DNA of 64,000 nt from Perkinsus olseni (GCA_013115125.1 JABANN010000070.1:1-64000), one strand, 5' to 3'. Numbered from the stretch's first letter, positions 2,957 through 37,605 are shown. Notes: a model not told the origin generated them from the letters alone. Numbers and translations are program-made.

Positions 2957-3072
2957 TCGTCGCTGGAACCAGCCCGAATCTAGTGGTTTTTTCTCATTTT
3001 ACAAACACGTTGTGTTGAAGTTGAGGCCTGGAAGGTAGCATAGTCATTTATCTTCTCAGTTTATTCTATTCA

Positions 3073-5319
3073 ATGCCTAAGAGAACGCGTTCTGCTGAAG
3101 CCAAGGCAAGAAGAAATCAACGTCGCCGGGAGCGGCGCGACTCGACGATGGATAATCGTGATCGAGCGGAGGCCTTTTTATTCGACGTCGGTGATAAGGT
3201 TGGTGAACAGCAAGCTCATTTGCAGTTCTACAACACTACAGCCTACAACTCTAAGGGTAACTGGAAGGATGAGGTATTAGAGAGGCTCACTGACGGTTCC
3301 TCTAGACCGGAGTACTGCACGTGGTTTAAGAATCGTTCATCCGACACCCCTGGAGTCCTCCAGCAGTTACAGGCAGCTCTCGAAGATGCGGTCACGCGTG
3401 CTCTAACGCCACCCGTTTCGGAGCAACTTTCTGCCTGGAGTGAACTCCCACGATCTTCGCAAGGTGAAAACTGCCCATTCAAGAAACCAACTCTATCGGC
3501 TGATCTTGACAAGAGTGCTGAAGGATTGGCTGTTTCTTTTGCGTCGGTCCTTGGAAGTTCCACTGCAAAATCTCCACAGTGCAACATTCGAGCTCGGCTT
3601 ACTCGTGACCTCTTGCTGGCTATTTCTCAACCTGGTGTACCAGAAGACTTAGACATATGCAACGAGGTTCAACGTGGCTGTCACGTTGGGTATGGCCGTC
3701 CTGTCCGTGCGACCGGTTTATGGCCGAAGGACAGAGGCCCGAAGCACTCTGGTTTTGGTCTCTCCTACGAAGACGGCCAAGTCTGGAAAAACTATAGGTC
3801 TGCTGATGACGTAGCAGACCTGGTTCAGGCAACGCTGGATGACGAAGTTGCAAAAGGTCATATGGCCAAGTTGCCCGCAGCTCCGGAAGGTGCGGTTATA
3901 ACCAAACTGGCGTGCGTTCCCAAGCCGAATGGTAAGGTTCGCTTGATTGATGATCTTCGCCGTTCCGGAGTTAACGAGAAGATTCACTGTGAGGAAACCA
4001 TATGCCTTCCTGGCCTAGCGTCGGCGGCCTTCCTGGTCCAACAGCAGAAGAAAAGATCCCCTGAGGAGGAGCTGGTGTGGATCGAAGCTGACATAGCCTC
4101 GGCGTTTCGCCATATCCCGGTCCATGTCGATGACCAGAAGCTCTTACTGAACCATGTTGGTCAGTGGTACTTCAGACACTTGCGTCTCCCCTTTGGACTA
4201 CGGAGCTCTCCTCTGCTGTGGTGCCGATATTTTGCATGCGTACACCGCATATTGAAAAAGTTGGTCCCGTCCGACACCGATATTGGTTCGGGTATGATCT
4301 ACGTTGATGATCTTGGTTGGATCACAACAAGAAGGGAGTCTTTGAGGATGCTTCTTCGTATTCTTCTGGTATATAAGGCGTTGGGGCTTGACGTTGCTTA
4401 TGATAAGCTCCGGATCACTTCATCGCCACATAGCCTTGGTTTCGAATGGGACCTTGCATCCCAAACAGTCCGAGTGCCAGAACCGAAACGACTGTCTCTA
4501 GTGGAGGAGACGCAACTCGTGGTGGATTCCTTCAAGTTCTGCTCTGTACCTATCTCTCTTATTGAACGAGTCACGGGACGTCTCAGCTGGTTATGCCAAG
4601 TGACTCCGAGGCTGCGACATCTACTTCAACCTTGGTATGCCCTCAAGAAAGCAGCTAATTCTCGACACCTCCGAGTAGTCCGGGTTGGCGAGAAGTTGGT
4701 GGACTCCGCACGATCGTTTCTGGAGGTTCTACGTTCGCCGAGTCTAACTCATACCACTGCCTCGCAAGTGCTCGGATGGGAAGATTCCGGAGGAATTCCG
4801 GAAACAGTGGTAGTCGCCGACTCTTCACTTTCGGCGATGGGGGGTGTGCTTTTCCAAATGGGAGAAAACCCCATGAGAACTGAATGGTTTCATTGGTCCT
4901 TCTCTGACGAGCTGGCGCGGCTGCCTCTGGTCAACAGTTCTGTCGTCACCAGCTCAGACATCTGCCCATTAGAATTGATTGCGGTCGGCGTTGGCATCTC
5001 ACGAGCGTTTGCGAGAGGCAGCCGGGTGGTACATGTCCTAACAGACAACAAAGCTACGATGTCAGCTATCAACAAGAACTACTCTTCATCCCCTCGGATG
5101 AGCCAAGTACTCTACGCCTTGCGGGAGTTGTGGCCGAAGGTGGGATATATGGTTACAGCCCACCACTTGAGTGGACCTTCGAATGTTCTAGCAGACTTCT
5201 TGTCCCGATCGGAGCTGGATGTCATCCGCAAGTCCATGGTTGACGTGGCTGAGGAAGGAGATATCTCAGGTATCTTAGATGGCCTACTGAAGTCGGTATC
5301 CGCATATTCACGAGCGTGA
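3073..5319 (+). CDS. Reverse transcriptase + DIRS-type RNase H
   Basis: VPKPNGKVRLIDDLR, DIASAFRHIPV, LPFGLRSSP, YVDD; RNase H motifs ADSS, LELIAV, LTDN, NVLADFLSR. No C-terminal methyltransferase. Confidence 0.95.
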   Translation: MPKRTRSAEAKARRNQRRRERRDSTMDNRDRAEAFLFDVGDKVGEQQAHLQFYNTTAYNSKGNWKDEVLERLTDGSSRPEYCTWFKNRSSDTPGVLQQLQAALEDAVTRALTPPVSEQLSAWSELPRSSQGENCPFKKPTLSADLDKSAEGLAVSFASVLGSSTAKSPQCNIRARLTRDLLLAISQPGVPEDLDICNEVQRGCHVGYGRPVRATGLWPKDRGPKHSGFGLSYEDGQVWKNYRSADDVADLVQATLDDEVAKGHMAKLPAAPEGAVITKLACVPKPNGKVRLIDDLRRSGVNEKIHCEETICLPGLASAAFLVQQQKKRSPEEELVWIEADIASAFRHIPVHVDDQKLLLNHVGQWYFRHLRLPFGLRSSPLLWCRYFACVHRILKKLVPSDTDIGSGMIYVDDLGWITTRRESLRMLLRILLVYKALGLDVAYDKLRITSSPHSLGFEWDLASQTVRVPEPKRLSLVEETQLVVDSFKFCSVPISLIERVTGRLSWLCQVTPRLRHLLQPWYALKKAANSRHLRVVRVGEKLVDSARSFLEVLRSPSLTHTTASQVLGWEDSGGIPETVVVADSSLSAMGGVLFQMGENPMRTEWFHWSFSDELARLPLVNSSVVTSSDICPLELIAVGVGISRAFARGSRVVHVLTDNKATMSAINKNYSSSPRMSQVLYALRELWPKVGYMVTAHHLSGPSNVLADFLSRSELDVIRKSMVDVAEEGDISGILDGLLKSVSAYSRA

Positions 5320-5485
5320 GTGAATGAGACGGAGTTGGCCGGAGCCTACTTTGGGTGACTGACATTTCGATAGATAGTCTTACTGTATCGTCAACTTGCG
5401 GTCTGTTGCGTTAATTACGGGGCGAGGAATCGAGTGCCTCTGTGAAAACTCACTCGTTACAGCCGTTTCCTAGCCCTTCTTTCAT

Positions 5486-6607
5486 ATGTCCAACAAGGCA
5501 GTCTTACCGTCGGTCGAAGAAGAGTATCGACTCAGAAGGGGCAGTCTTCGCAAGGAGACCAACACCGTGTCGGGAGGCCACACCCCCCAGATGATGGAAG
5601 CGAGGGCGCCTCGACAGAAGAGAAGCCGAGCTATGCCTGAGGTGTCGAGTTCCGACATCGACAACCACATGCAAGCAGCAAGAGCCGCCTCTACCATGCG
5701 CTCTCGCGACTCTACTTTGAAAGGCTACAAGGAGGTTTGCGACAAGCATGGGTTCACACACTTCCCTATCACAGCTGACTCGATGGTGTGTTACATCGTG
5801 TCACTCACTATCAAAGGTCTCATGTGGGAGACGGTGCAGAACTATACTGGAAAGGTGAAGGTGGAGTCAAGGCTGCATGAGACGGCTCCTCTGTCCAACG
5901 CTGACCAGGAGAAGATCCGGTTGGCACTGCATGCGGCGAAACGGCTCCTCAGGAACAGAAAGAAGAAACGGACGGTGACACTGACGGTTAAGCAGTTACG
6001 GCAATTGCTGCAATTGGTCCCTCCGTCAGGCAAGGTAGAGAATGTCCTCGCCTACCTGACAGGCGTGATGGCACTTCTTCGTCTAAAGGAAGTTGTAGCT
6101 CTCCGTAATGAGGACCTCACCTTCAACGAGTCTGATCGGTCACTTCATATACATATACGTCAGTCTAAGACTGATCAGAGCGGTACCGGAGAGACGGTAG
6201 TGGTTGGCTGTGTCAATGGCCTCGAGTCCTCTACCTCGTGCGCCAGCCCATTCTGCATCTATCACCGACTTTGGGTCAAGAAACAGCAGGAGGAAGAGAG
6301 CTCTAGCGATACTTCTAAACTGTTCGAAACCTCTTATACTCAACTCTCTAAGGATATCAAATTCCTTGTTGAAGCTGTTATGGCTGGTTCTGAGGTTGGT
6401 CAGGAGGAGGTTGGCCGGAAGACGTCGCATAGCATGCGACGAACGGGTGTCTTCTTGATGAGCCAAGCTGGCATATCTCTGGAGGCAATCGCCGAGTATG
6501 GCCGTTGGAGTGATACCAGTACCGTGGCGAATCACTATATGCGAGATCACTCTGGGAGAGAAGCACGTGAGAAGCTTTACTCTCAGAGAATGACTGGAGT
6601 TGAGTAG
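5486..6607 (+). CDS. Tyrosine recombinase (retroelement type)
   Basis: Catalytic set intact: LLRLKE (R), SKTDQ (K), HSMRR (HxxR), GRWS (W), HY (Y). Confidence 0.93.
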   Translation: MSNKAVLPSVEEEYRLRRGSLRKETNTVSGGHTPQMMEARAPRQKRSRAMPEVSSSDIDNHMQAARAASTMRSRDSTLKGYKEVCDKHGFTHFPITADSMVCYIVSLTIKGLMWETVQNYTGKVKVESRLHETAPLSNADQEKIRLALHAAKRLLRNRKKKRTVTLTVKQLRQLLQLVPPSGKVENVLAYLTGVMALLRLKEVVALRNEDLTFNESDRSLHIHIRQSKTDQSGTGETVVVGCVNGLESSTSCASPFCIYHRLWVKKQQEEESSSDTSKLFETSYTQLSKDIKFLVEAVMAGSEVGQEEVGRKTSHSMRRTGVFLMSQAGISLEAIAEYGRWSDTSTVANHYMRDHSGREAREKLYSQRMTGVE

Positions 6608-7289: not shown

Positions 7290-7371
7290 GACACTTTGGC
7301 CGAGTGGTTAAGGCGGCGGCCTGCTAAGCCGTTGGGCTATGCCCGCGAGGGTTCGAATCTCTCACGTGTCG
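7290..7371 (+). tRNA. tRNA-Ser(GCT)
   Basis: Full cloverleaf; anticodon loop CTGCTAA; long variable arm GGGC-TAT-GCCC; T-loop TTCGAAT; one T-C mismatch in the acceptor stem. Confidence 0.93.
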
Positions 7372-7416
7372 TCATGGTTTCGAAAGTTATCGCAATATCG
7401 GCCACAGCTGAAAGCC

Positions 7417-7490
7417 TGCCCGATGCAGGATTCGAACCTACGACCATCTGCTCCGTAGGCAGTCATTCTATCCAGCTGAACTAATCGGGC
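7417..7490 (-). tRNA. tRNA-Arg(ACG)
   Basis: Acceptor stem GCCCGAT/ATCGGGC, anticodon loop CTACGGA, T-loop TTCGAAT. Confidence 0.95.
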
Positions 7491-7995
7491 ATCCAGGAGC
7501 AGTTCGTGAACCTCCTCGATTGCCGGGACATTTTCGTCGTTGGGAGCTGAGAAATCAATCACTCGTTAACTGGTTAATTGATTCATTGATCCGCAACTGA
7601 TCTAAAAAGCAAAAAACTGTTTTTTACATCACCTGATCGATTGACCAATTGACCACTCTGAAGAAAAGTGGAAAAGAGAAAAAAATAAAGCCTAAACGCG
7701 AAAGAGCAGAGTATAGCAGCGAGATGGGCCATGACGGGCAATAACAAGGAAAGCCTGAGAACCTGGAGATCTTCGCTCGGCGCAACAAAACACAGAGGTG
7801 ACGCGTCAGTACGATATCATGCAGTTGTCTTCATTATAATGTAGACTGCGAACGGTGATGTGCCGGAGAAACCTGAAGAGCAGAATCCATCGGGCATCCT
7901 AGATTAGTTCGTGAACCCCCTCGATTGCCTGGACGTTTTCGTCATTAGGAGGTGAGAAATCAATCACCCGTGAACTAGTTGATTGATCTATTGAT
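7484..7995. repeat. Diverged ~107-bp direct repeat (7484-7590 and 7889-7995) of the tRNA-Arg 5' end and upstream flank
   Basis: Both copies read atcgggcatcc..agttcgtgaacc.cctcgattgcc.ggac.ttttcgtc.tt.ggag.tgagaaatcaatcac.cgt.aact.gtt.attgat. Confidence 0.9.
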
Positions 7996-8865
7996 TCTTG
8001 CGCACTGAGTAGTGAGGCACACACATCAGCCAGCAATGACCGGTGTCACGAAGGGGCGAGAGCCGACGAGAATAGTTGTTAACCCACGAAATCCGCGACC
8101 ATAATGATGTCGCGCAACACCGCCGAAGGCACGACGGCAAAGTTTACCTTTCTGCGCTGAACTCAATATGCCAGAATACTTGGAATGTTACCAACATGTT
8201 TGAGACGAGTATCCAAGCCGATCTCGGCTGCCGAGACTCGGCAGCTATTGGGATGATTGATCCATGGCGCTGAGTGTGACGGTTTTACTTAGTGGAGCAC
8301 GCGTGCCGCGAAGCCTCTAGCGTTCAATCGTTCCGCTAGAAACAGTCGACTGCCCCACGCTGCTCGTATCAACGGGGCCTCGACCATTCGATTTCAGTGC
8401 ATCGCAGAGATAGAAAGTGATGGAAATTCTCCGCCACGCCGACGGTTCCGTCGAAATCAGCAACTTTACAAACACCCTACGCAAACGTCCCCGAATCTCA
8501 GACGCAATGTATGCAAGTTTCGTCCGTTACAGTATATGCGCTCCCTATATACTTCTCCTTCACATTCTTTTGTATATGAGGCGGGACGGGGGTTGCACAG
8601 TTTGCAGGAGACGCTGGATGTCTACTCCTTTCACCGTGGAAGCACCACGAACGAACTCGATCGGCCATCTCGTGTGAGATATGCCAGGGGTTCATACGTT
8701 GTTATGCCGCATCCTCTGCAATGTTCAGACTCGACACACGAGAGCTTGGTAGACTCAGCCTCTATCTCCCTCATTATACTGTAGCCAACGCAGCACCCAT
8801 CAGATCACCAGTCGCGGTTCACAACAACGATACGGAGATGACAGTCTTGCGCTCATGATGTACAT

Positions 8866-30531: not shown

Positions 30532-32508
30532 ATGTCGCTCGAATCTGCATCCAGCCCGGCGCGTGCAAGTTCCAGCGCTTACAACGATAGGCTCAGTCCT
30601 TATCCAAATAAGGGGCTGTGCGGGGATCCTGAGTACGAGGAGGACTCCGAGTCCGATGACTATTCTGAGAAATTACGACAGTTGTCGGGGTGGGTGAAGG
30701 AGGCTAAGGTGAGTCCGACTGGCTTGCTTTCCCTCGCTGAGCATCTTGTGGAGCCCAACTTTGGTGGATCGCGTTCTGATTGCTCCTACTTTTGCACGGG
30801 GTCAGGGGGACTCGACACGCTTTGCGAAGTATGCAGAACGGATCGGAAGTCGTTCAGTGAAGAGAAGAAAATGCTTCAGGGAGCGTCGAGAGATCTACGA
30901 GCTGTAGACTGCAGCCCTAATCGTTTGTCTGGCCCGATTGTTGGGTAGAGGTGTATGGATTGTGACTGTTCGTTATTAAGTGACGAGTCTCTGTTGGTCA
31001 GCTCCTCGCGTCGCTCCGGAAGGGTCCGACTCGCGATTACTACTCTTCTTCAGCACCTCGTTTTCTTTACTGGGGCGGGTATATCCACAGCCTGCGGGAT
31101 ACCGGATTTTCGTGGTCCTAATGGTATCTGGACGCGCGAAAAGACGAGCAGTGAATCGAGAACAAGGGATACTCCACTGACGCCCTCCATCACGGAGGGA
31201 ACGGACGCTGTGTGTAGGTCTGACGGATACCGTGACAAGCTCCCACCACGGCAACCGGGCAGAGGACTGTTTCATACTCACTGCTTGTGCGTCAGCTTTC
31301 TCGGAGGCGATTCCGAGCTACTCTCATTTAGCCATTGCCGAGCTCATCAGTCGAGGAAAGGCGAAAGCAGTCGTGACTCAAGTACGCCTCGCAGCAGTGG
31401 TCGATCGAACTCGGCGCCTTCAGAACGTCGACGGGCTGCATTGGAAGTCCGGTATTCCGCGATCTCTATTGTCGGAGATTCATGGCTGCCTCCTCGCCTC
31501 CTACTGTGACAGCTGTCAGACTGAGTGAGTTGCTCTCTTCGCCGTAGAACCCAACCGCAGCTGTACGTTTACTCCAAGCGAAATCACCAGCATAGACATT
31601 CCTCAAGAAGCTGTGTGGTGTGGGTGTACGATGTGTTTGAGTGACTTGTCGTGTGAGAGGACGAATGATCTGCGGTTCAGTCGTGGGAGTCGGCGAGATC
31701 CGTCCGTAGGTTCCGCCACCTTGACGACGTCGGAGGCTGCGGCCAGAGACCGCTGCCAGGAGGGCTACTGTGCCCCAAGTGTGAACGGAGCAATACGAGT
31801 ATGTTATCTAACCCGATAACGAAATCCCTCGAGCTGAGTTCATTCGTTGTGCAGAGACCGCTCTACATCGACCTGTGCGAATGGTTAGACGAGAGGGTCA
31901 TCGTCGTGACTGCGTGCTGCATGACTGTGTACTGGATTGGAACGAGGAGCTTCCCGAGCCCGACAGGAGCCGAGCTATCCGTCATTGCAAACTAGCTGAC
32001 CTCTGCATTGTTATCGGTAAGGCTCATTCACACACTTCTTCTCTCATACTGAGGCATCTCATGTGACGCCCATAGTACGATGCTCTCTCGTGCGGCGAGT
32101 CATACTCGCAGTGCTAGGTTCTTCTCTACGTATCGAGCCAGCGAGCTCATTCCCTTTCTACGCCCAGTGGATCAACAAACGCATGGAGAAGCTCGAGCGA
32201 GGCCGAGTGGTCATCATCAACCTTCAGAAGACAGAGTATGATGAACGATGTGGTACGTTCCGTTGCATGACGTTCCGTGAAGTGCCTGCGGGAATGTCAT
32301 GTCTGCTGTAGATCTGCGATTTTTCACTCGTTCCGACCGAGTCTTCCGAGACCTCTTCGAGCAACTCGGCATCACCATTGAAGGGCGTCCTCTGATCAAG
32401 CCAGACTTGCTCACGGACCCAGCGCTTTACGAATCGTATCATCGAGTTCGCGGTAGCAGCAACACCCGCAGCGGTGATCCGACTGTTAAACGAATACGAA
32501 ACATTTGA
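30532..32508 (+). CDS. Class IV sirtuin (SIRT6/7-like); multi-exon
   Basis: [59 protein letters not shown]. Confidence 0.92.
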
Positions 32509-33054: not shown

Positions 33055-33425
33055 TCGTTTGCCGACGTGGCATCGGACTCCTCCGCTGTGATGGGTGTAG
33101 ATACCGATCATCGAGCGAGGATATTCGCCTGCCGTCCATCAACTATATGCGGAAGTACCCGCCTTTCCGGCGGAAACACAAACCGCTGCCATCCTTGAAT
33201 GTTGAATAGCCCCCGCATGAGATATTTCCGTAGCCAACGGTGTTCAGTTCTGAGTGTGTGGGACGAGTATTACAGCTTTCTCATGCTACACGTACATATA
33301 CACGTACGTGTAAGCGATCTCAGCCTATCGACGGCTCATGTAACATCCTTTCTTACGTATCCCCGTTGACTACCCACGCGAACGCGACTCCAAAACCGTA
33401 TGGAAGAGAAACGTAGTTAGGCTCA

Positions 33426-36229
33426 TCACTCCGAGCCAGCTGCCTTATTCACTACGGCAAGCCATTTTGTCTCGGTCTCAGGCTGCTGATCATCCACAGG
33501 CCGGGTGATAGGTACCTGAGACACATCACATGCTCAATCAACGGGTTCATGGGGCTCTATGAGACCGGGTTTTACATGACAGTAGCGTCCCTGACGTTGA
33601 ATTCTCGTGGAATAGACCGACGGCATCTCGAACGAGTACCTGCGGATGAGTAGTTGCGTTCCCGGTAACACACAACTGCGCTGCGGGAGGCTGGCCTACT
33701 CTTTCTTATCCACGTCCTCTTCTGGGAACGTAATCCTTACTCGGCAAACATGCCTCTCTCGCCATCGGAGGAAAGATTGCGGAACCTGCAGAGGACGCGT
33801 CGCGTCCTCACGAGCACGAGGCGAGAGAGCACGTTTCTCACCATCATCCGCCAGAAGTGGTCTCGCATCAGATCGTTCGAGATCACAAACACTTTTTCAG
33901 CTGCCCGTCCTTCTTTCTCTGCTAGTGCACGGGCTTGCTCCTCACAGCGGATTGCTGCATACATCCAGAACCAATCATCATTGGCACGAGGAGGAACCTG
34001 CCCGGGGACCAGTGAATAACAATCTGGCCAGAACGAGGACCTACTCTGTAAAGCTGGAAGAGGCTAGCCTTATCATCATTTTGCTTTGTCCACTTATCAT
34101 CGTACCTGTTGTGCAGGGGCTGTCACGATCAAAGCTCGGCCATGGTCGGAATGATGGCCAGGACTTGACTTACTTCTTGATGAGCTCATCGAACTTGGTC
34201 CTCTTCTCATCGCTTAGTTCCTCAATGTCGTCTTCGTCGCTGGTGTGAGAACTCTGAGGCTTGGAAGAAGCCGATTCGTCAGCACTGTCAGGGATGGACC
34301 CATTGGCTGGTGCGGACGACGATGTCAGCTCGGGGTCCAGCTCAGGGGCGAAGCTACCTGGATCGACGCAGCAGTTTGATACACCAGAACCCTAGTGGCT
34401 CGGACACGGGCCGAAAACGGAACCGAATAATCCTCGACCGACCGCGTTGACGTGTGGTGGAACTTCAGAATTTCACCGACAGTCTGGCCGAGTGGTCTAA
34501 GGCGGTGGCTTTAGGCGCCATTCCGAAAGGGCGTGGGTTCGAACCCCACGGCTGTCACTTCTTCTTGCGATCTTTTTCCGACAGACAGCGACAGAGTAGT
34601 CGAGATACCATGTTGATCATCCCCGCTTCAGAGCCCACCATCAAGCCTAGCGAGCTTCTGCTTCTGCTTGCTTGCAATTTTCCGTCTTTTCTTGGCAAGG
34701 GGGCCCGTACCGACAGTCAAGTCGAGGCCCTGCTCCAGCCATTTGCTGTGCAAGATAACCAGAACCTTGTAAGGGTTGATGATACGAACATGATACGAAC
34801 AAAGCGCGTATCAAAAGGCTTGGCAGCTCCACCTTCTTTCCTTCATTTGTGAAATGCTCCACAACATCATCTATCTGCGAGTGCTGGAAAAAACCATCCG
34901 TGTAATTCTGGTTCATGTGCCCAATATTAGCTGCATCAACGATGATGGTTGCGGGTGTCGACTGCGAATCTAACGGTCGGGACGAGCATTTAGTTCGCCT
35001 GAATAACTAGCCGCTCCGAAATGAAGCCGACCTAAGTAATCCTTCAAGTCGAGGAATTTCTGTTGCTGTTCTTCTGATAAGTCTTGCGTCGCCAGTCTCT
35101 CAGTTAGGTCCGAAAGCTCGTGCAGCTCCTCGTCTGTGATATCAATCGACCGCAGCTTGATGCCAGTCGCGGAGCATGCTCCCTCTGCGGAGATCTCCGT
35201 GGGGAGAACTTCTACGCCCGAATCCCGCTGGCCCATGGTTTTAATAGCATCCGTCAATCTCGAATCTGTGACGGCATCTATGGTGTTAGCAACTTTATCG
35301 GCGAGGAAGTCGAAACCTACAAGCAGCGATGTATGACCGACGGACGTGTTATCTCGCCGCGGTTACTTTCGCCCGCAGGACAACACCGAAGGAGGTAGGA
35401 CAACTCTGCTTCACCGAGAGTGAATCCTCGGCTCTCTAGGTCTGCGACCAGCTTCATAGCCGCCTGAGCAGGCGAGGTGGACAGCAGATACTTATGGACC
35501 GAATCCAATCTCACATCGAAATCCTGGTACTGTGGTGAGGAATACAACTGCATGAGAGGAGCATAACTTCTTAACCGAGGTTGGAAGTTGCTCAGGCCTA
35601 ATAGAGCGGATAAGGATGGCAGACAGATGAACACTCACATTCCTTGTGGTACTGGAGGGCCAGATCGATCTCCCCAGCTGCGACGGCCAACTTCACCATG
35701 CCAGTGAGGATGTTCTCTTGCCGCTGCGAGCCTGCGGATAGACAGTAGCCAGGCGCTGCTGTAAGAAGGTGCCCTTACACTTATCCAGGACCTGCTGTGC
35801 AAGTTTGAGGATCTTTCGGGCTGTTTCGATGTCCTTGGCGGGGCATCCTGCCTCCAGATTAACATCACTAGCAGCAACGGTGAGGATACGGGCATGCATC
35901 TGAAGGAACGCACTACTACGACTAGATCTCCCGTCAGCGGCACGGATGTGAGCCACATGCGGGTGGCCAGCGGCGGAACCATCCTCCAGTTCGTGGTTGT
36001 CCTCACCCCCTTGGTCAGGCCTGCCTCCACAAAATCTTCATTTGAGATGATCTCCTCGTAAGTCTTGAATGCCCCCAAGATATCATGCCCCCGAGCTGAC
36101 GTGTACCTGCAGATGATCGGCGGGTGGTGGTGGACACTCGCCGCTGCTGCTGACGACGCACATTTTGGTTTGAATGGCCTTCAACTGCTTCTTTAAGGCG
36201 ACCTCCTTGGTGTTCTTCTGATGGGGCAT
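33426..36229 (-). CDS. PRORP: Protein-only RNase P (helical repeats + NYN nuclease); multi-exon, start uncertain
   Basis: IIVDAANIGHMNQN, VLVILHSKW, ANDDWFWMYAA, VISNDLMRDHFW, FLRWRERH, YSTRIQ, C-terminal WLAV. Basic AKKRRK insertion resembles an NLS. Confidence 0.88.
34478..34557 (+). tRNA. tRNA-Leu(TAG)
   Basis: Acceptor GACAGTC/GGCTGTC, anticodon loop TTTAGGC, variable arm, T-loop TTCGAAC, downstream T5 run. Confidence 0.96.
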
Positions 36230-36410
36230 TGGGGAGGGCAGGGCTACTTGAAACAACTGCAGATTCCTGCCGCTGCTCATCACAACCAAACTCAACATGC
36301 CACACTCGACAGCGGCGGAAAACACTGACCCAAGGTCAGCAGGTTGGAGATTCCCAACGCTCCTTCCACAGCCACGTGGGTGCCGTGATGGCGCCTGTAG
36401 ATGAGAACGG

Positions 36411-37522
36411 CTACACCCTTGGTGGCGACGTGGCATCCAGGAGACACTCCGTCCCAACTTCTGCACTCTTCTTTACATCAACAACCTTGCTGAAGTACTG
36501 AGTCCCCAGTAGACTGTCCTGAACACAAATGGATGATAACGAGGAGTAGTCGAGGGCACCACCACCACCACCTCGCCGCTCGTAAGGTAAACGTTATTGG
36601 CACTCCGAAAAAAGGCTATGTGGTCTGCAGCGGCCTTCCTAGCATCGATGTATACCTAATGTTGATCCATGACCGATACAGAATCGCCATGGCATCTACA
36701 TAGATCTCCGCGGACTTCCTCAGCCCACTGACGATGCCTGTGAGAGTAGCCGAGGCGTCCACCAAATGGATGTGCTGTCGCTGAGAGGAAGCAAGCACTG
36801 GCGAGACACAAATCCGGCCCTTCTCATCCGCGAAGACCGAGACAAGCCGGCCGAGGCTGCAGCGCCGCTGATCTAGGAGGACCGCCAGACCCGTGATGAG
36901 GCTAACACCGACCTTGTTGTACCGCTATTCTACTGTTAGCTTACGTTCATTGGCCTGAGGCCTTCACTAGCGAGGATGGCTTTCCAGTGGTTGAAGTATG
37001 TACCATGGACAAGCATTGGGGGGAGGGAAGGTGCATCCACGGGGGTCCTGTTAGAGAGCATGACGCCTAGCCGATAAGGCCAAGGTGGTACATGATGAGG
37101 GTGGGGTCTACGACAGTCGGGGGGAAGGAGTGCCCCTGTGTTGCCCGAATGAGGAGGTCACCATTGGGGGCCGTCGTCAGGGCAAAACTGATGGTCCGAG
37201 GAGTTTTGGGGAGGGAGCCATCGGGGCCATGTACCGTTGTTTAGCGTTGCTTGCAACACATTCCTTAATATCATCCTGAGTTGCCCTGAGGCTTTTGAAC
37301 CGTGGATGGGCTAGGAGGTCCTGTACTCTAACATAACCAGCCTTGTCGATGCTGATGCCCATGTCCACAGCCTTGTGACGCAGTACCTGAGCAAAGGTTG
37401 GGAGAAGTTGAGGGGCGGAATGAGGTGAAGACCTTAGACAGTAACCGTGATATGGCCTCGCTGGAACTCATCTCTCGTCGTTGTTGTCGTCTGCGGTGGT
37501 CGGGTGTCCGAGTGGAGCTCAT
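36411..37522 (-). CDS. TPT1: tRNA 2'-phosphotransferase (Tpt1/KptA); multi-exon
   Basis: SRLLSK-VLRH, SNAKQR, IRATQGHS, LVHGTY, RQHIHL, SGLRKS, YIDA, FFRSANNVYLT. Confidence 0.92.
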
Positions 37523-37605
37523 GGCCGCCGAAGAAGCCCCTACTTGGGGAAGAGCACTCGGACCACGACCCATCAACTCAACAGCTCACATCAATGGAGG
37601 AACAT

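What the first reader, a model, noticed from the sequence alone, without database searches (positions are those of the whole stretch)
34358..34638. tRNA-Leu gene nested antisense inside an intron of the RNase P (PRORP) gene
Seen: the PRORP NYN domain is split by a 281-nt phase-1 intron (GTGGGC at 34638 to CCAG at 34358; ...LARLD-G-SFAPE...), about five times the local intron size. An intact tRNA-Leu(TAG) lies within it on the opposite strand. The enzyme that matures tRNA 5' ends therefore hosts a substrate gene. Inference: Pol III occupancy or antisense pairing could couple PRORP output to tRNA synthesis; it may also be chance in a compact genome.
Basis: partly seen in the sequence, partly recalled or inferred. 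Interest (0 to 1): 0.7.

Follow-up and report, generated by a model that had tools for sequence, protein, structure and literature searches.

The report
tRNA gene inside RNase P intron
A leucine tRNA gene really does sit, backwards, inside an intron of the gene for the protein enzyme that trims tRNAs in a Perkinsus shellfish parasite, but it is most likely an ordinary accident of a crowded, tRNA-rich genome and not a control circuit.

Summary
ARAGORN and Rfam (54.5 bits) both call tRNA-Leu(TAG) at 34478-34558 (+). It has A and B boxes and a T5 run 15 nt downstream. It lies wholly inside a 281-nt GT..AG phase-1 intron (34358-34638) of a minus-strand PRORP gene.

Contigs from three RNA-type runs in three studies skip exactly these 281 bases; two have at least 31 letters on both sides and one has 27. 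The DNA run has no such joint. The gene's other 13 RNA-supported introns are 41-107 nt (median 56).

The spliced protein is 86.6% identical to Perkinsus marinus PRORP and 96.5% identical to a partial P. olseni model.

The proposed coupling between PRORP and tRNA synthesis has no evidence here. Perkinsus carries hundreds of tRNA genes and the locus is very compact. In C. elegans, 44% of tRNA genes are intronic, which is the chance level. None of six distant PRORP loci holds a tRNA. The antisense strand is not tRNA-like.

Whether congeners share the nesting could not be tested, because no genome DNA was available. A published precedent for the mechanism exists (an antisense Pol III unit in Polr3e).

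The next gene upstream encodes Tpt1, another tRNA-maturation enzyme. Earlier findings of this scan held nothing similar.

The parts
34478..34558 (+). tRNA-Leu, anticodon TAG (reads CUA/CUG); type II tRNA with a short variable arm; the base after the acceptor stem is A at 34557
   Evidence: ARAGORN. Rfam RF00005 at 54.5 bits, E 5.8e-09, full-length, and again.
34485..34495 (+). A-box-like internal Pol III promoter element (TGGCCGAGTGG, tRNA positions 8-18)
   Evidence: Position found. The consensus it is compared with is recalled, not taken from a call.
34536..34546 (+). B-box-like internal Pol III promoter element (GGTTCGAACCC, tRNA positions 59-69)
   Evidence: Position found. The consensus is recalled.
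34573..34577 (+). TTTTT run 15 nt after the tRNA 3' end, the expected Pol III terminator. It is the only run of four or more T between the tRNA and the intron end.
34358..34638 (-). Host intron: intron 9 of 14 in the PRORP gene, 281 nt, GTGGGC...CCAG, phase 1. If it is retained, a stop follows after 3 codons (...LARLDGGL*).
   Evidence: Joint that skips 281 bases in contigs of X8, X7 and X19 and in none of X2. Boundaries. Read-through translation.
34639..34765 (-). PRORP exon 9 (VLVILHSKW...KLARLD + G)
   Evidence: RNA contig pieces 34637-34763 in X8, X7 and X19. Translation.
34174..34357 (-). PRORP exon 10 (SFAPELDPEL...DELIKK). It encodes the acidic, low-complexity part of a lineage-specific insertion in the NYN domain.
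   Evidence: RNA contig pieces 34171-34355. Translation. The stretch has no counterpart in A. thaliana PRORP1 in the alignment.
33426..36229 (-). PRORP coding region from ATG (MPHQKN...) to TGA: 15 exons and 14 introns, 583 aa from this ATG (606 aa from an upstream ATG at 36298 that is probably 5' of the mRNA end)
   Evidence: Model built from the joints. Identity is 86.6% to P0001 (P. marinus) and 82.9% to P0002 (P. chesapeaki), colinear with 0-7 gaps, and 96.5% to P0014 (P. olseni, partial). P0001 and P0002 score above the Pfam cut-offs for PF16953 and PF17177.

Best explanation
This is an ordinary, probably functional copy of the nuclear tRNA-Leu(UAG) gene. It is a self-contained Pol III unit with internal A and B boxes and an oligo-T terminator, and it happens to lie inside intron 9 of the PRORP gene of a Perkinsus species (P. 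olseni or a very close relative). Pol II transcribes the host gene through it on the other strand, and the 281-nt intron is spliced out efficiently. The nesting most likely arose neutrally. The genome has very short intergenic spacers, many introns and hundreds of dispersed tRNA genes, so some tRNA genes will land in introns, and now and then in a gene of tRNA biology. No dedicated regulatory link between the two genes is needed.

Shown: the tRNA gene, the intron, its splicing, and the identity of the host gene.
Inferred: that the tRNA copy is transcribed, that this PRORP is the enzyme that processes it, and that the arrangement is neutral.
For: The tRNA is called by two methods at normal scores. 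The other two tRNAs in the window score 59.8 and 53.2 bits against 54.5 here. The promoter boxes and the T5 run are in place.

The whole Pol III unit lies 80-120 nt away from both splice sites. The spliced form dominates in RNA-type contigs. In X7, the joined contig has depth 476.3 and one unspliced 338-nt contig has depth 5.5.

The nested copy is not unique. In DNA run X2, a 49-nt unitig of the D-arm-to-variable region (34485-34533, 0 differences) has depth 276.8, and unitigs of the 3' half have about 4100-4300, against about 90 for the flanking single-copy contigs. The assembly graph breaks inside the tRNA (table 8; this is only a rough proxy for copy number).

P. marinus scaffolds hold 349 tRNA-Leu-CTT, 116 Gly, 46+9 Ile and 23 Tyr genes (PMC3706591, passages).

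The locus is very compact. The Tpt1 gene stops at about 36413 and PRORP mRNA contigs start at 36258.

In C. elegans, 44% of 609 tRNA genes are intronic, no different from chance, and 44% of those lie antisense to the host (PMC4999229, passages).

0 of 6 metagenome loci encoding PRORP relatives (26-46% identity) contain any tRNA. In L001-L003 the homologous region is uninterrupted coding sequence.

The antisense strand carried by the pre-mRNA gives no tRNA-like Rfam match even at E up to 10, so the host transcript does not carry a substrate-like element.

Mature tRNA-Leu(UAG) is detected in P. marinus and P. olseni tRNA sequencing, with 12, 8, 16 and 9 tRNAs detected in four libraries (PMC9550989, Suppl Table 2). 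This is not locus-specific.
Against: The decisive test, presence of the tRNA in the same intron of P. marinus, P. chesapeaki and other species, could not be run.

The orientation is antisense, and that is the orientation in which a Pol III unit was shown to impede Pol II in Polr3e (PMC5358760, abstract and section headings).

The immediate upstream neighbour is Tpt1, a second tRNA-maturation enzyme. Three tRNA-related features therefore sit within 4 kb, which is less likely by chance than the nesting alone, although I noticed it post hoc.

The non-tRNA part of the intron (200 nt) is itself longer than any of the other 13 introns (maximum 107).

My chance estimate rests on assumed numbers, not on a genome-wide count.
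Confidence: 0.75

Rival explanations
1. Transcriptional interference loop. Pol III and TFIIIB/C bound to the antisense tRNA-Leu gene act as a head-on roadblock for Pol II elongating through intron 9, so PRORP mRNA output falls when Pol III activity is high. [quoted passage not shown]
For: The architecture matches: a complete Pol III unit, antisense, wholly inside an intron of a Pol II gene whose product belongs to the same pathway. The precedent is PMC5358760, where an antisense but not a sense MIR lowered reporter output and its deletion raised Polr3e (abstract and section headings).
Against: Nothing here measures occupancy or elongation. Contig depths cannot rank parts of a gene (note).

Full-length spliced mRNA contigs are present in all three RNA-type runs.

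The logic is weaker than for Polr3e. More Pol III activity would give less of the enzyme needed to process its products.

0 of 6 distant PRORP loci have a nested tRNA. Conservation in congeners is unknown.
Confidence: 0.1
2. Control runs the other way. [quoted passage not shown]
For: PMC4999229 (passages) reports that the host promoter affects an intronic tRNA. Intronic tRNA genes there show lower Pol III occupancy, with less reduction for copies on the opposite strand, and specific tRNA-host pairs are conserved among Caenorhabditis species.
Against: There are no data on this locus. About three copies share the same anticodon region, and a large family shares the 3' half, so the contribution of one copy is probably small. 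A unicellular parasite has no tissues to distinguish.
Confidence: 0.08
3. The nested copy is a silent passenger. It is an intact-looking tRNA gene that is not transcribed, because Pol II passage or chromatin keeps Pol III factors off.
For: The copy is redundant, because other copies exist.
Against: There is no decay. It matches the model over its full length at 54.5 bits with no non-standard pairs flagged, and the boxes and terminator are intact.
Confidence: 0.05
4. Antisense pairing. The intron in the PRORP pre-mRNA, which is complementary to tRNA-Leu(UAG), pairs with the tRNA or its precursor and so links splicing or stability of the host transcript to tRNA level. Alternatively, the intron is itself cut by RNase P.
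For: 81 nt of perfect complementarity exist by construction.
Against: The minus strand gives no tRNA-like or other structured-RNA match at E up to 10; the only near-tRNA hits are on the + strand. Mature tRNAs are tightly folded and modified. The intron is removed efficiently.
Confidence: 0.02

Closest known systems
Intronic tRNA genes of Caenorhabditis elegans (Sagi et al. 2016, PMC4999229; passages read)
   Same: Independent Pol III tRNA genes lie inside spliced introns of Pol II protein-coding genes, on either strand.
   Different: In C. elegans this was counted genome-wide: 44% of 609 genes are intronic, at chance level, and 56% of those share the host's strand. Host-promoter effects and conservation of pairs were tested. 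Here there is one locus in a perkinsid, the host gene encodes a tRNA-processing enzyme, and there is no genome-wide count and no conservation test.
Antisense MIR (Pol III unit) in intron 1 of Polr3e (Yeganeh et al. 2017, PMC5358760; listing, abstract and section headings seen)
   Same: A Pol III-transcribed element sits antisense inside an intron of a gene whose product serves the Pol III/tRNA pathway.
   Different: That case has shown Pol III occupancy, conservation across mammals, and deletion and reporter experiments. It forms a coherent negative feedback on Pol III itself. Here the element is a true tRNA gene in the ninth intron, none of those properties is tested, and the feedback logic is not coherent.
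PRORP, protein-only RNase P (A. thaliana PRORP1, PDB 4g23; review PMC10941002, section 4 read)
   Same: The host gene has a PPR region plus a PRORP NYN metallonuclease. Orthologues pass the Pfam cut-offs and match 4g23 at E 4.4e-20. The DxxN, NDDW and NDxMRDH stretches are kept.
   Different: There is an insertion of roughly 90 residues in the NYN domain (query 339-449 against chain 372-393), and the tRNA-bearing intron lies within it. Two columns that hold Cys in 4g23 hold Thr and Ala here. Activity and location are untested.
Amplified tRNA gene families of Perkinsus marinus and their Dada transposons (Kojima and Jurka 2013, PMC3706591; passages read)
   Same: This is a multi-copy tRNA-Leu family in Perkinsus. 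It explains the roughly 46-fold depth of the tRNA 3' half in the DNA run and why tRNA genes are scattered widely.
   Different: The nested gene has anticodon TAG, not the amplified AAG type. It is intact, with no Dada insertion and no transposon-like ends. The intron flanks have no other copy in the window.

Membership tests
Nested (intronic) Pol III tRNA gene in a Pol II host gene | A bona fide tRNA gene (cloverleaf, score above a curated threshold) | tested here: met
   ARAGORN tRNA-Leu(tag). Rfam 54.5 bits against a gathering score of 29.
Nested (intronic) Pol III tRNA gene in a Pol II host gene | Own Pol III signals: internal A and B boxes and a downstream oligo-T | tested here: met
   Boxes at 34485-34495 and 34536-34546, and T5 at 34573-34577. 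The consensus sequences are recalled.
Nested (intronic) Pol III tRNA gene in a Pol II host gene | Lies wholly inside an intron that is actually spliced out of the host mRNA | tested here: met
   The joint skipping 34358-34638 is seen in contigs of 3 RNA-type runs from 3 studies (shorter sides 127, 127 and 27 letters) and in 0 contigs of DNA run X2.
Nested (intronic) Pol III tRNA gene in a Pol II host gene | The nested copy is itself transcribed by Pol III | not testable with these tools
   Only contigs were available and the tRNA is multi-copy. The isoacceptor is detected in published tRNA sequencing, but that is not locus-specific.
PRORP (protein-only RNase P) | N-terminal PPR region of the PRORP type (PF17177) | tested here: met
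   P0001 scores 55.7 bits and P0002 52.8 bits against a cut-off of 27. The window model is 86.6% and 82.9% identical to them. A single window exon alone scores 20.8 bits, below the cut-off.
PRORP (protein-only RNase P) | C-terminal NYN metallonuclease of the PRORP type (PF16953) with the conserved acidic motifs | tested here: met
   P0001 scores 86.2 bits and P0002 89.6 bits against a cut-off of 39.1. Window exons match profile positions 1-35, 60-99 and 138-169 in order. The VDAAN, NDDWFW and SNDLMRDH stretches align to 4g23.
PRORP (protein-only RNase P) | Split zinc-binding module joining the two domains | tested here: inconclusive
   In the phmmer alignment to 4g23, CkcC aligns to Csat and WLC aligns to WLa. 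The window model reads CSAT, has CH before VP, and ends WLA. Which residues are the ligands is recalled, not taken from a call.
PRORP (protein-only RNase P) | Cleaves pre-tRNA 5' leaders | not testable with these tools
   No assay was possible. The inference rests only on family membership and on the absence of organelle-encoded tRNAs.
Polr3e/MIR-type Pol III-on-Pol II transcriptional interference | Active Pol III unit in antisense orientation inside an intron of the affected gene | tested here: inconclusive
   Antisense position inside the intron is met. Activity of the unit is not shown.
Polr3e/MIR-type Pol III-on-Pol II transcriptional interference | Arrangement conserved among related species | not tested
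   No Perkinsus genome DNA was available. 0 of 6 distant PRORP loci hold a tRNA, but they are too distant to decide.
Polr3e/MIR-type Pol III-on-Pol II transcriptional interference | Removing or silencing the Pol III unit raises host gene expression | not testable with these tools
   This is experimental only.

The most novel reading that the evidence does not exclude
The antisense tRNA-Leu gene is a Pol III roadblock that makes PRORP output depend on Pol III activity. Together with the Tpt1 gene immediately upstream on the same strand, it forms a small co-regulated tRNA-maturation neighbourhood in perkinsids. That would be a protist counterpart of the Polr3e/MIR circuit, built from a genuine tRNA gene.
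Probability: 0.07. Interest if true: 0.6.

Novelty: new member of a known kind. Interest (0 to 1): 0.3.

Why it matters
If the arrangement is only a coincidence, its main value is practical. It gives a fully RNA-supported 15-exon model for the Perkinsus PRORP gene. It also shows that the public P. marinus model has a wrong penultimate exon and a misleading name, and that a P. olseni model fuses three genes.

If the nesting proved conserved and active, it would be a second, independent example of a Pol III unit throttling a gene of its own pathway from inside an intron. It would also be the first such example involving RNase P. That would make cross-talk between Pol II and Pol III testable in a culturable alveolate.

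Tried and rejected
**Whole genome.** None is held for this window. A genome-wide count of intronic tRNA genes and a search for RNase P RNA were therefore impossible.

**Conservation by protein search.** I translated the + strand ORF 34451-34849, which spans the tRNA and the antisense of exon 9, and searched it in the hope of finding called ORFs from other Perkinsus assemblies. It returned 9 hits. I read 6 of the 9, and all 6 share only the peptide encoded by a tRNA-Leu sequence. None covers the exon-antisense part, so this says nothing about congeners.

**Metagenome scan with a PRORP alignment.** This gave 6 loci at 26-46% identity. None has a tRNA or a Tpt1 match better than E 5. They are too distant to say anything about Perkinsus.

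**P. olseni model P0014.** It ends 25 residues before the junction, so it does not show whether that assembly has the nested tRNA.

**Self-substrate idea.** The intron RNA as a tRNA-like RNase P target is rejected, because there is no minus-strand match at E up to 10.

**Mobile-element origin.** The only flanking direct repeat is 12 nt at 83% identity (34471-34482 and 34573-34584), which is at chance level. The intron's flanks have no other copy in the window.

**Depth upstream versus downstream of the tRNA as a sign of a roadblock.** The runs are contigs, so depth cannot rank parts of a gene.

**The supplement table of PMC9550989.** At first it looked like gene counts. Its header shows that it lists tRNAs detected by sequencing, not genes, so I did not use it for copy numbers.

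**Earlier findings of this scan.** Nothing on this genome and nothing similar.

**Paper searches that gave nothing useful:**. Searches found no report of a tRNA gene nested in a PRORP or RNase P protein gene. The library is limited to open-access papers and preprints.

Full report
**What is there.** ARAGORN finds three tRNA genes in the window. One is tRNA-Leu (anticodon tag) at 34478-34558 on the + strand. Rfam's tRNA model matches 34478-34557 over its full length at 54.5 bits (gathering score 29, E 5.8e-09). That is in line with the other two tRNAs, at 59.8 and 53.2 bits. The gene carries an A-box-like element at 34485-34495 and a B-box-like element at 34536-34546. The first T run downstream is TTTTT at 34573-34577. 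The consensus sequences I compared these with are recalled.

**The host gene.** Reading the minus strand gives a multi-exon gene. Its exon translations hit, in order, the PRORP-type PPR region and positions 1-35, 60-99 and 138-169 of the PRORP nuclease model. Each hit is weak, as expected for single exons.

A search with the 52-residue exon at 33842-33997 found three longer proteins:
- Perkinsus marinus, 576 aa, 90% identity
- P. chesapeaki, 581 aa, 88% identity
- an unnamed 522-aa relative

Scanned whole, the two Perkinsus proteins pass the Pfam cut-offs for PF16953 (86.2 and 89.6 bits against 39.1) and PF17177 (55.7 and 52.8 bits against 27). The P. marinus protein matches Arabidopsis PRORP1 (PDB 4g23) at E 4.4e-20.

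**Splicing evidence.** Twenty public runs hold part of the gene. I laid four of them on 33300-36350:
- X8, guessed to be RNA
- X7, kind unknown
- X19, on record as RNA
- X2, DNA, which may be the source of the window

Fourteen joints with GT..AG ends on the minus strand appear in the three RNA-type runs and in none of X2's contigs. One joint skips exactly 281 bases, 34358-34638. X8 and X19 bridge it with 127 letters on the shorter side. X7 has only 27, below the tool's 31-letter rule, so I count two firm runs and one weak one, from three studies.

X2's contigs run unbroken through the intron up to the tRNA. One X7 contig (338 nt, depth 5.5, against 476.3 for the joined contig) runs unspliced from 34329 to 34666. 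It could be pre-mRNA, intron retention or DNA carry-over.

The joints corrected my hand-built model at two places and added three introns. The resulting open frame is 606 aa, or 583 aa from the second ATG at 36229. It is colinear with the P. marinus protein (86.6% identity), the P. chesapeaki protein (82.9%) and a partial P. olseni model (96.5% over 345 aa). The window therefore comes from P. olseni or a very close relative.

The other 13 introns are 41-107 nt with a median of 56, so the host intron is 5.0 times the median. It is phase 1. If it is retained, a stop follows after three codons.

**Where the intron sits in the protein.** In the alignment to 4g23, about 110 Perkinsus residues (339-449) face about 21 Arabidopsis residues (372-393). 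This is a lineage-specific, partly acidic insertion in the NYN domain. The junction ...KLARLD-G|S/TFAPE... lies inside it. The P. marinus and P. chesapeaki models have the same residues across the junction. That is compatible with a shared intron but does not show one.

**Is it more than coincidence?**

*Several results point to chance.*
- The nested copy is one of several. In X2, a unitig of 34485-34533 with no differences has depth 276.8, and unitigs of the 3' half have about 4100-4300. The flanking contigs have about 90, and the assembly graph breaks inside the tRNA (table 8). This is only a rough proxy for copy number.
- This fits Kojima and Jurka 2013, who counted 349 tRNA-Leu-CTT, 116 tRNA-Gly, 55 tRNA-Ile and 23 tRNA-Tyr genes in the P. 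marinus scaffolds, with about 1.5-fold redundancy (PMC3706591, passages).
- The locus is very compact. The upstream gene stops at about 36413, and PRORP mRNA contigs of two runs begin at 36258.
- In C. elegans, 44% of 609 tRNA genes lie in introns, no more than the intron share predicts, and 44% of those are antisense (PMC4999229, passages).
- A rough estimate uses my own assumed figures, not figures from a call. Suppose 10-30% of about 350 or more tRNA genes are intronic, among about 20,000 genes of which 100-150 concern tRNA biology. Then 0.2-0.8 hosts that look meaningful are expected per genome.

*Distant relatives do not share the feature.* A metagenome scan gave six PRORP loci at 26-46% identity. 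None of the six has any tRNA. In three of them the homologous region is continuous coding sequence.

*The pre-mRNA does not carry a substrate mimic.* The minus strand of 34300-34700 gives no tRNA-like match at E up to 10.

**What speaks for a link.**
- The orientation is antisense, as in the one well-studied case. There, a Pol III-transcribed MIR inside intron 1 of Polr3e impedes Pol II and lowers expression of a Pol III subunit (PMC5358760, abstract and headings).
- Perkinsus mtDNAs encode no tRNAs and all detected tRNAs are nuclear (PMC9550989, passages). If this PRORP is an RNase P, its pre-tRNA substrates are nuclear transcripts, including this tRNA.
- Mature tRNA-Leu(UAG) is detected in P. 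marinus and P. olseni (Suppl Table 2 of the same paper).
[quoted passage not shown] Which form serves the Perkinsus nucleus is not known to me.
- The gene directly upstream on the same strand encodes a Tpt1/KptA RNA 2'-phosphotransferase (PF01885, 62.9 bits against 26). By recall, this is the last enzyme of fungal- and plant-type tRNA splicing. A P. olseni gene model (P0014, 880 aa) fuses Tpt1 and PRORP on one 4.7-kb contig, so the tandem exists there too.

Three tRNA-related features within 4 kb are less likely by chance than one. However, I noticed this post hoc and could not test its conservation beyond P. olseni.

**Verdict.** The most likely explanation is neutral nesting of one copy of a multi-copy tRNA gene in an intron of a compact, intron-rich, tRNA-rich genome (confidence 0.75). 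A Polr3e-like interference loop is possible but untested, and its logic is weak (about 0.1).

The arrangement is a new instance of a known kind. In four literature searches I found no report of a tRNA gene inside a PRORP gene. The decisive tests are computational and simple once Perkinsus genomes are at hand: conservation of the nested tRNA in the orthologous intron, and the genome-wide share of intronic tRNA genes.

Noticed in passing
window 36413-37560 (-): The gene immediately upstream of PRORP on the same strand encodes a Tpt1/KptA RNA 2'-phosphotransferase (PF01885, 62.9 bits on the ORF 37180-37467). Two tRNA-maturation enzymes therefore sit in tandem less than 200 nt apart. A P. olseni model (P0014, 880 aa) fuses a membrane protein, Tpt1 and PRORP on one contig. 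0 of 6 distant PRORP loci have Tpt1 nearby.
   Followed up: partly
window 36229-36350 (-): RNA contigs of X7 and X19 end at 36258, right after a CAG, while an X8 contig reads on past 36350 toward Tpt1. This may be an mRNA 5' end or a trans-splice acceptor. The upstream ATG at 36298 then lies outside the mRNA, and the start is MPHQKN at 36229, as in the P. marinus and P. chesapeaki models.
   Followed up: no
window 34513-34557 (+): In DNA run X2, unitigs of the tRNA 3' half (1-2 differences) have depth of about 4100-4300 against about 90 for the flanks, and the assembly graph breaks inside the tRNA. This fits the amplified tRNA-Leu family reported for P. marinus (PMC3706591). Loose ends at 34560 in the RNA-type runs X8 and X7 show other tRNA-Leu copies lying in transcribed or carried-over sequence.
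   Followed up: partly
window 33576-33785 (-); protein P0001: The public P. marinus PRORP model has a different, probably mispredicted stretch (...EYVFCSVTESASGDR...) where the RNA-supported window model and P. chesapeaki read ...EY(S/T)FEMPS.YSTR.Q.QG.YCH.... Its source name, 'multidrug resistance pump, putative', does not fit its Pfam content.
   Followed up: partly
PRORP protein (window exons 35032-35316 and 33426-33515, -): Two columns that hold Cys in Arabidopsis PRORP1 (CkcC and WLC in the alignment to 4g23) hold Thr and Ala in Perkinsus (Csat, WLA). The zinc site may be remodelled. There is also an insertion of roughly 90 residues in the NYN domain.
   Followed up: no
window 3025-6607 (+): A retroelement with a reverse transcriptase ORF (RVT_1, 37 bits) followed by a tyrosine-recombinase ORF (Phage_integrase, 36.3 bits). 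This is a DIRS-like layout.
   Followed up: partly
window 7290-7491 and about 7492-8045: tRNA-Ser(GCT, +) and tRNA-Arg(ACG, -) converge 44 nt apart in a stretch of about 2 kb without long ORFs, next to the retroelement. The sequence just upstream of tRNA-Arg appears again near 7899-8045, seen as similar ORF translations. Whether these two tRNAs are intronic was not tested.
   Followed up: no
window 30949-32300 (+): A Sir2-family (sirtuin-like) gene lies downstream of PRORP on the other strand (PF02146, 28.5 bits on one ORF).
   Followed up: no
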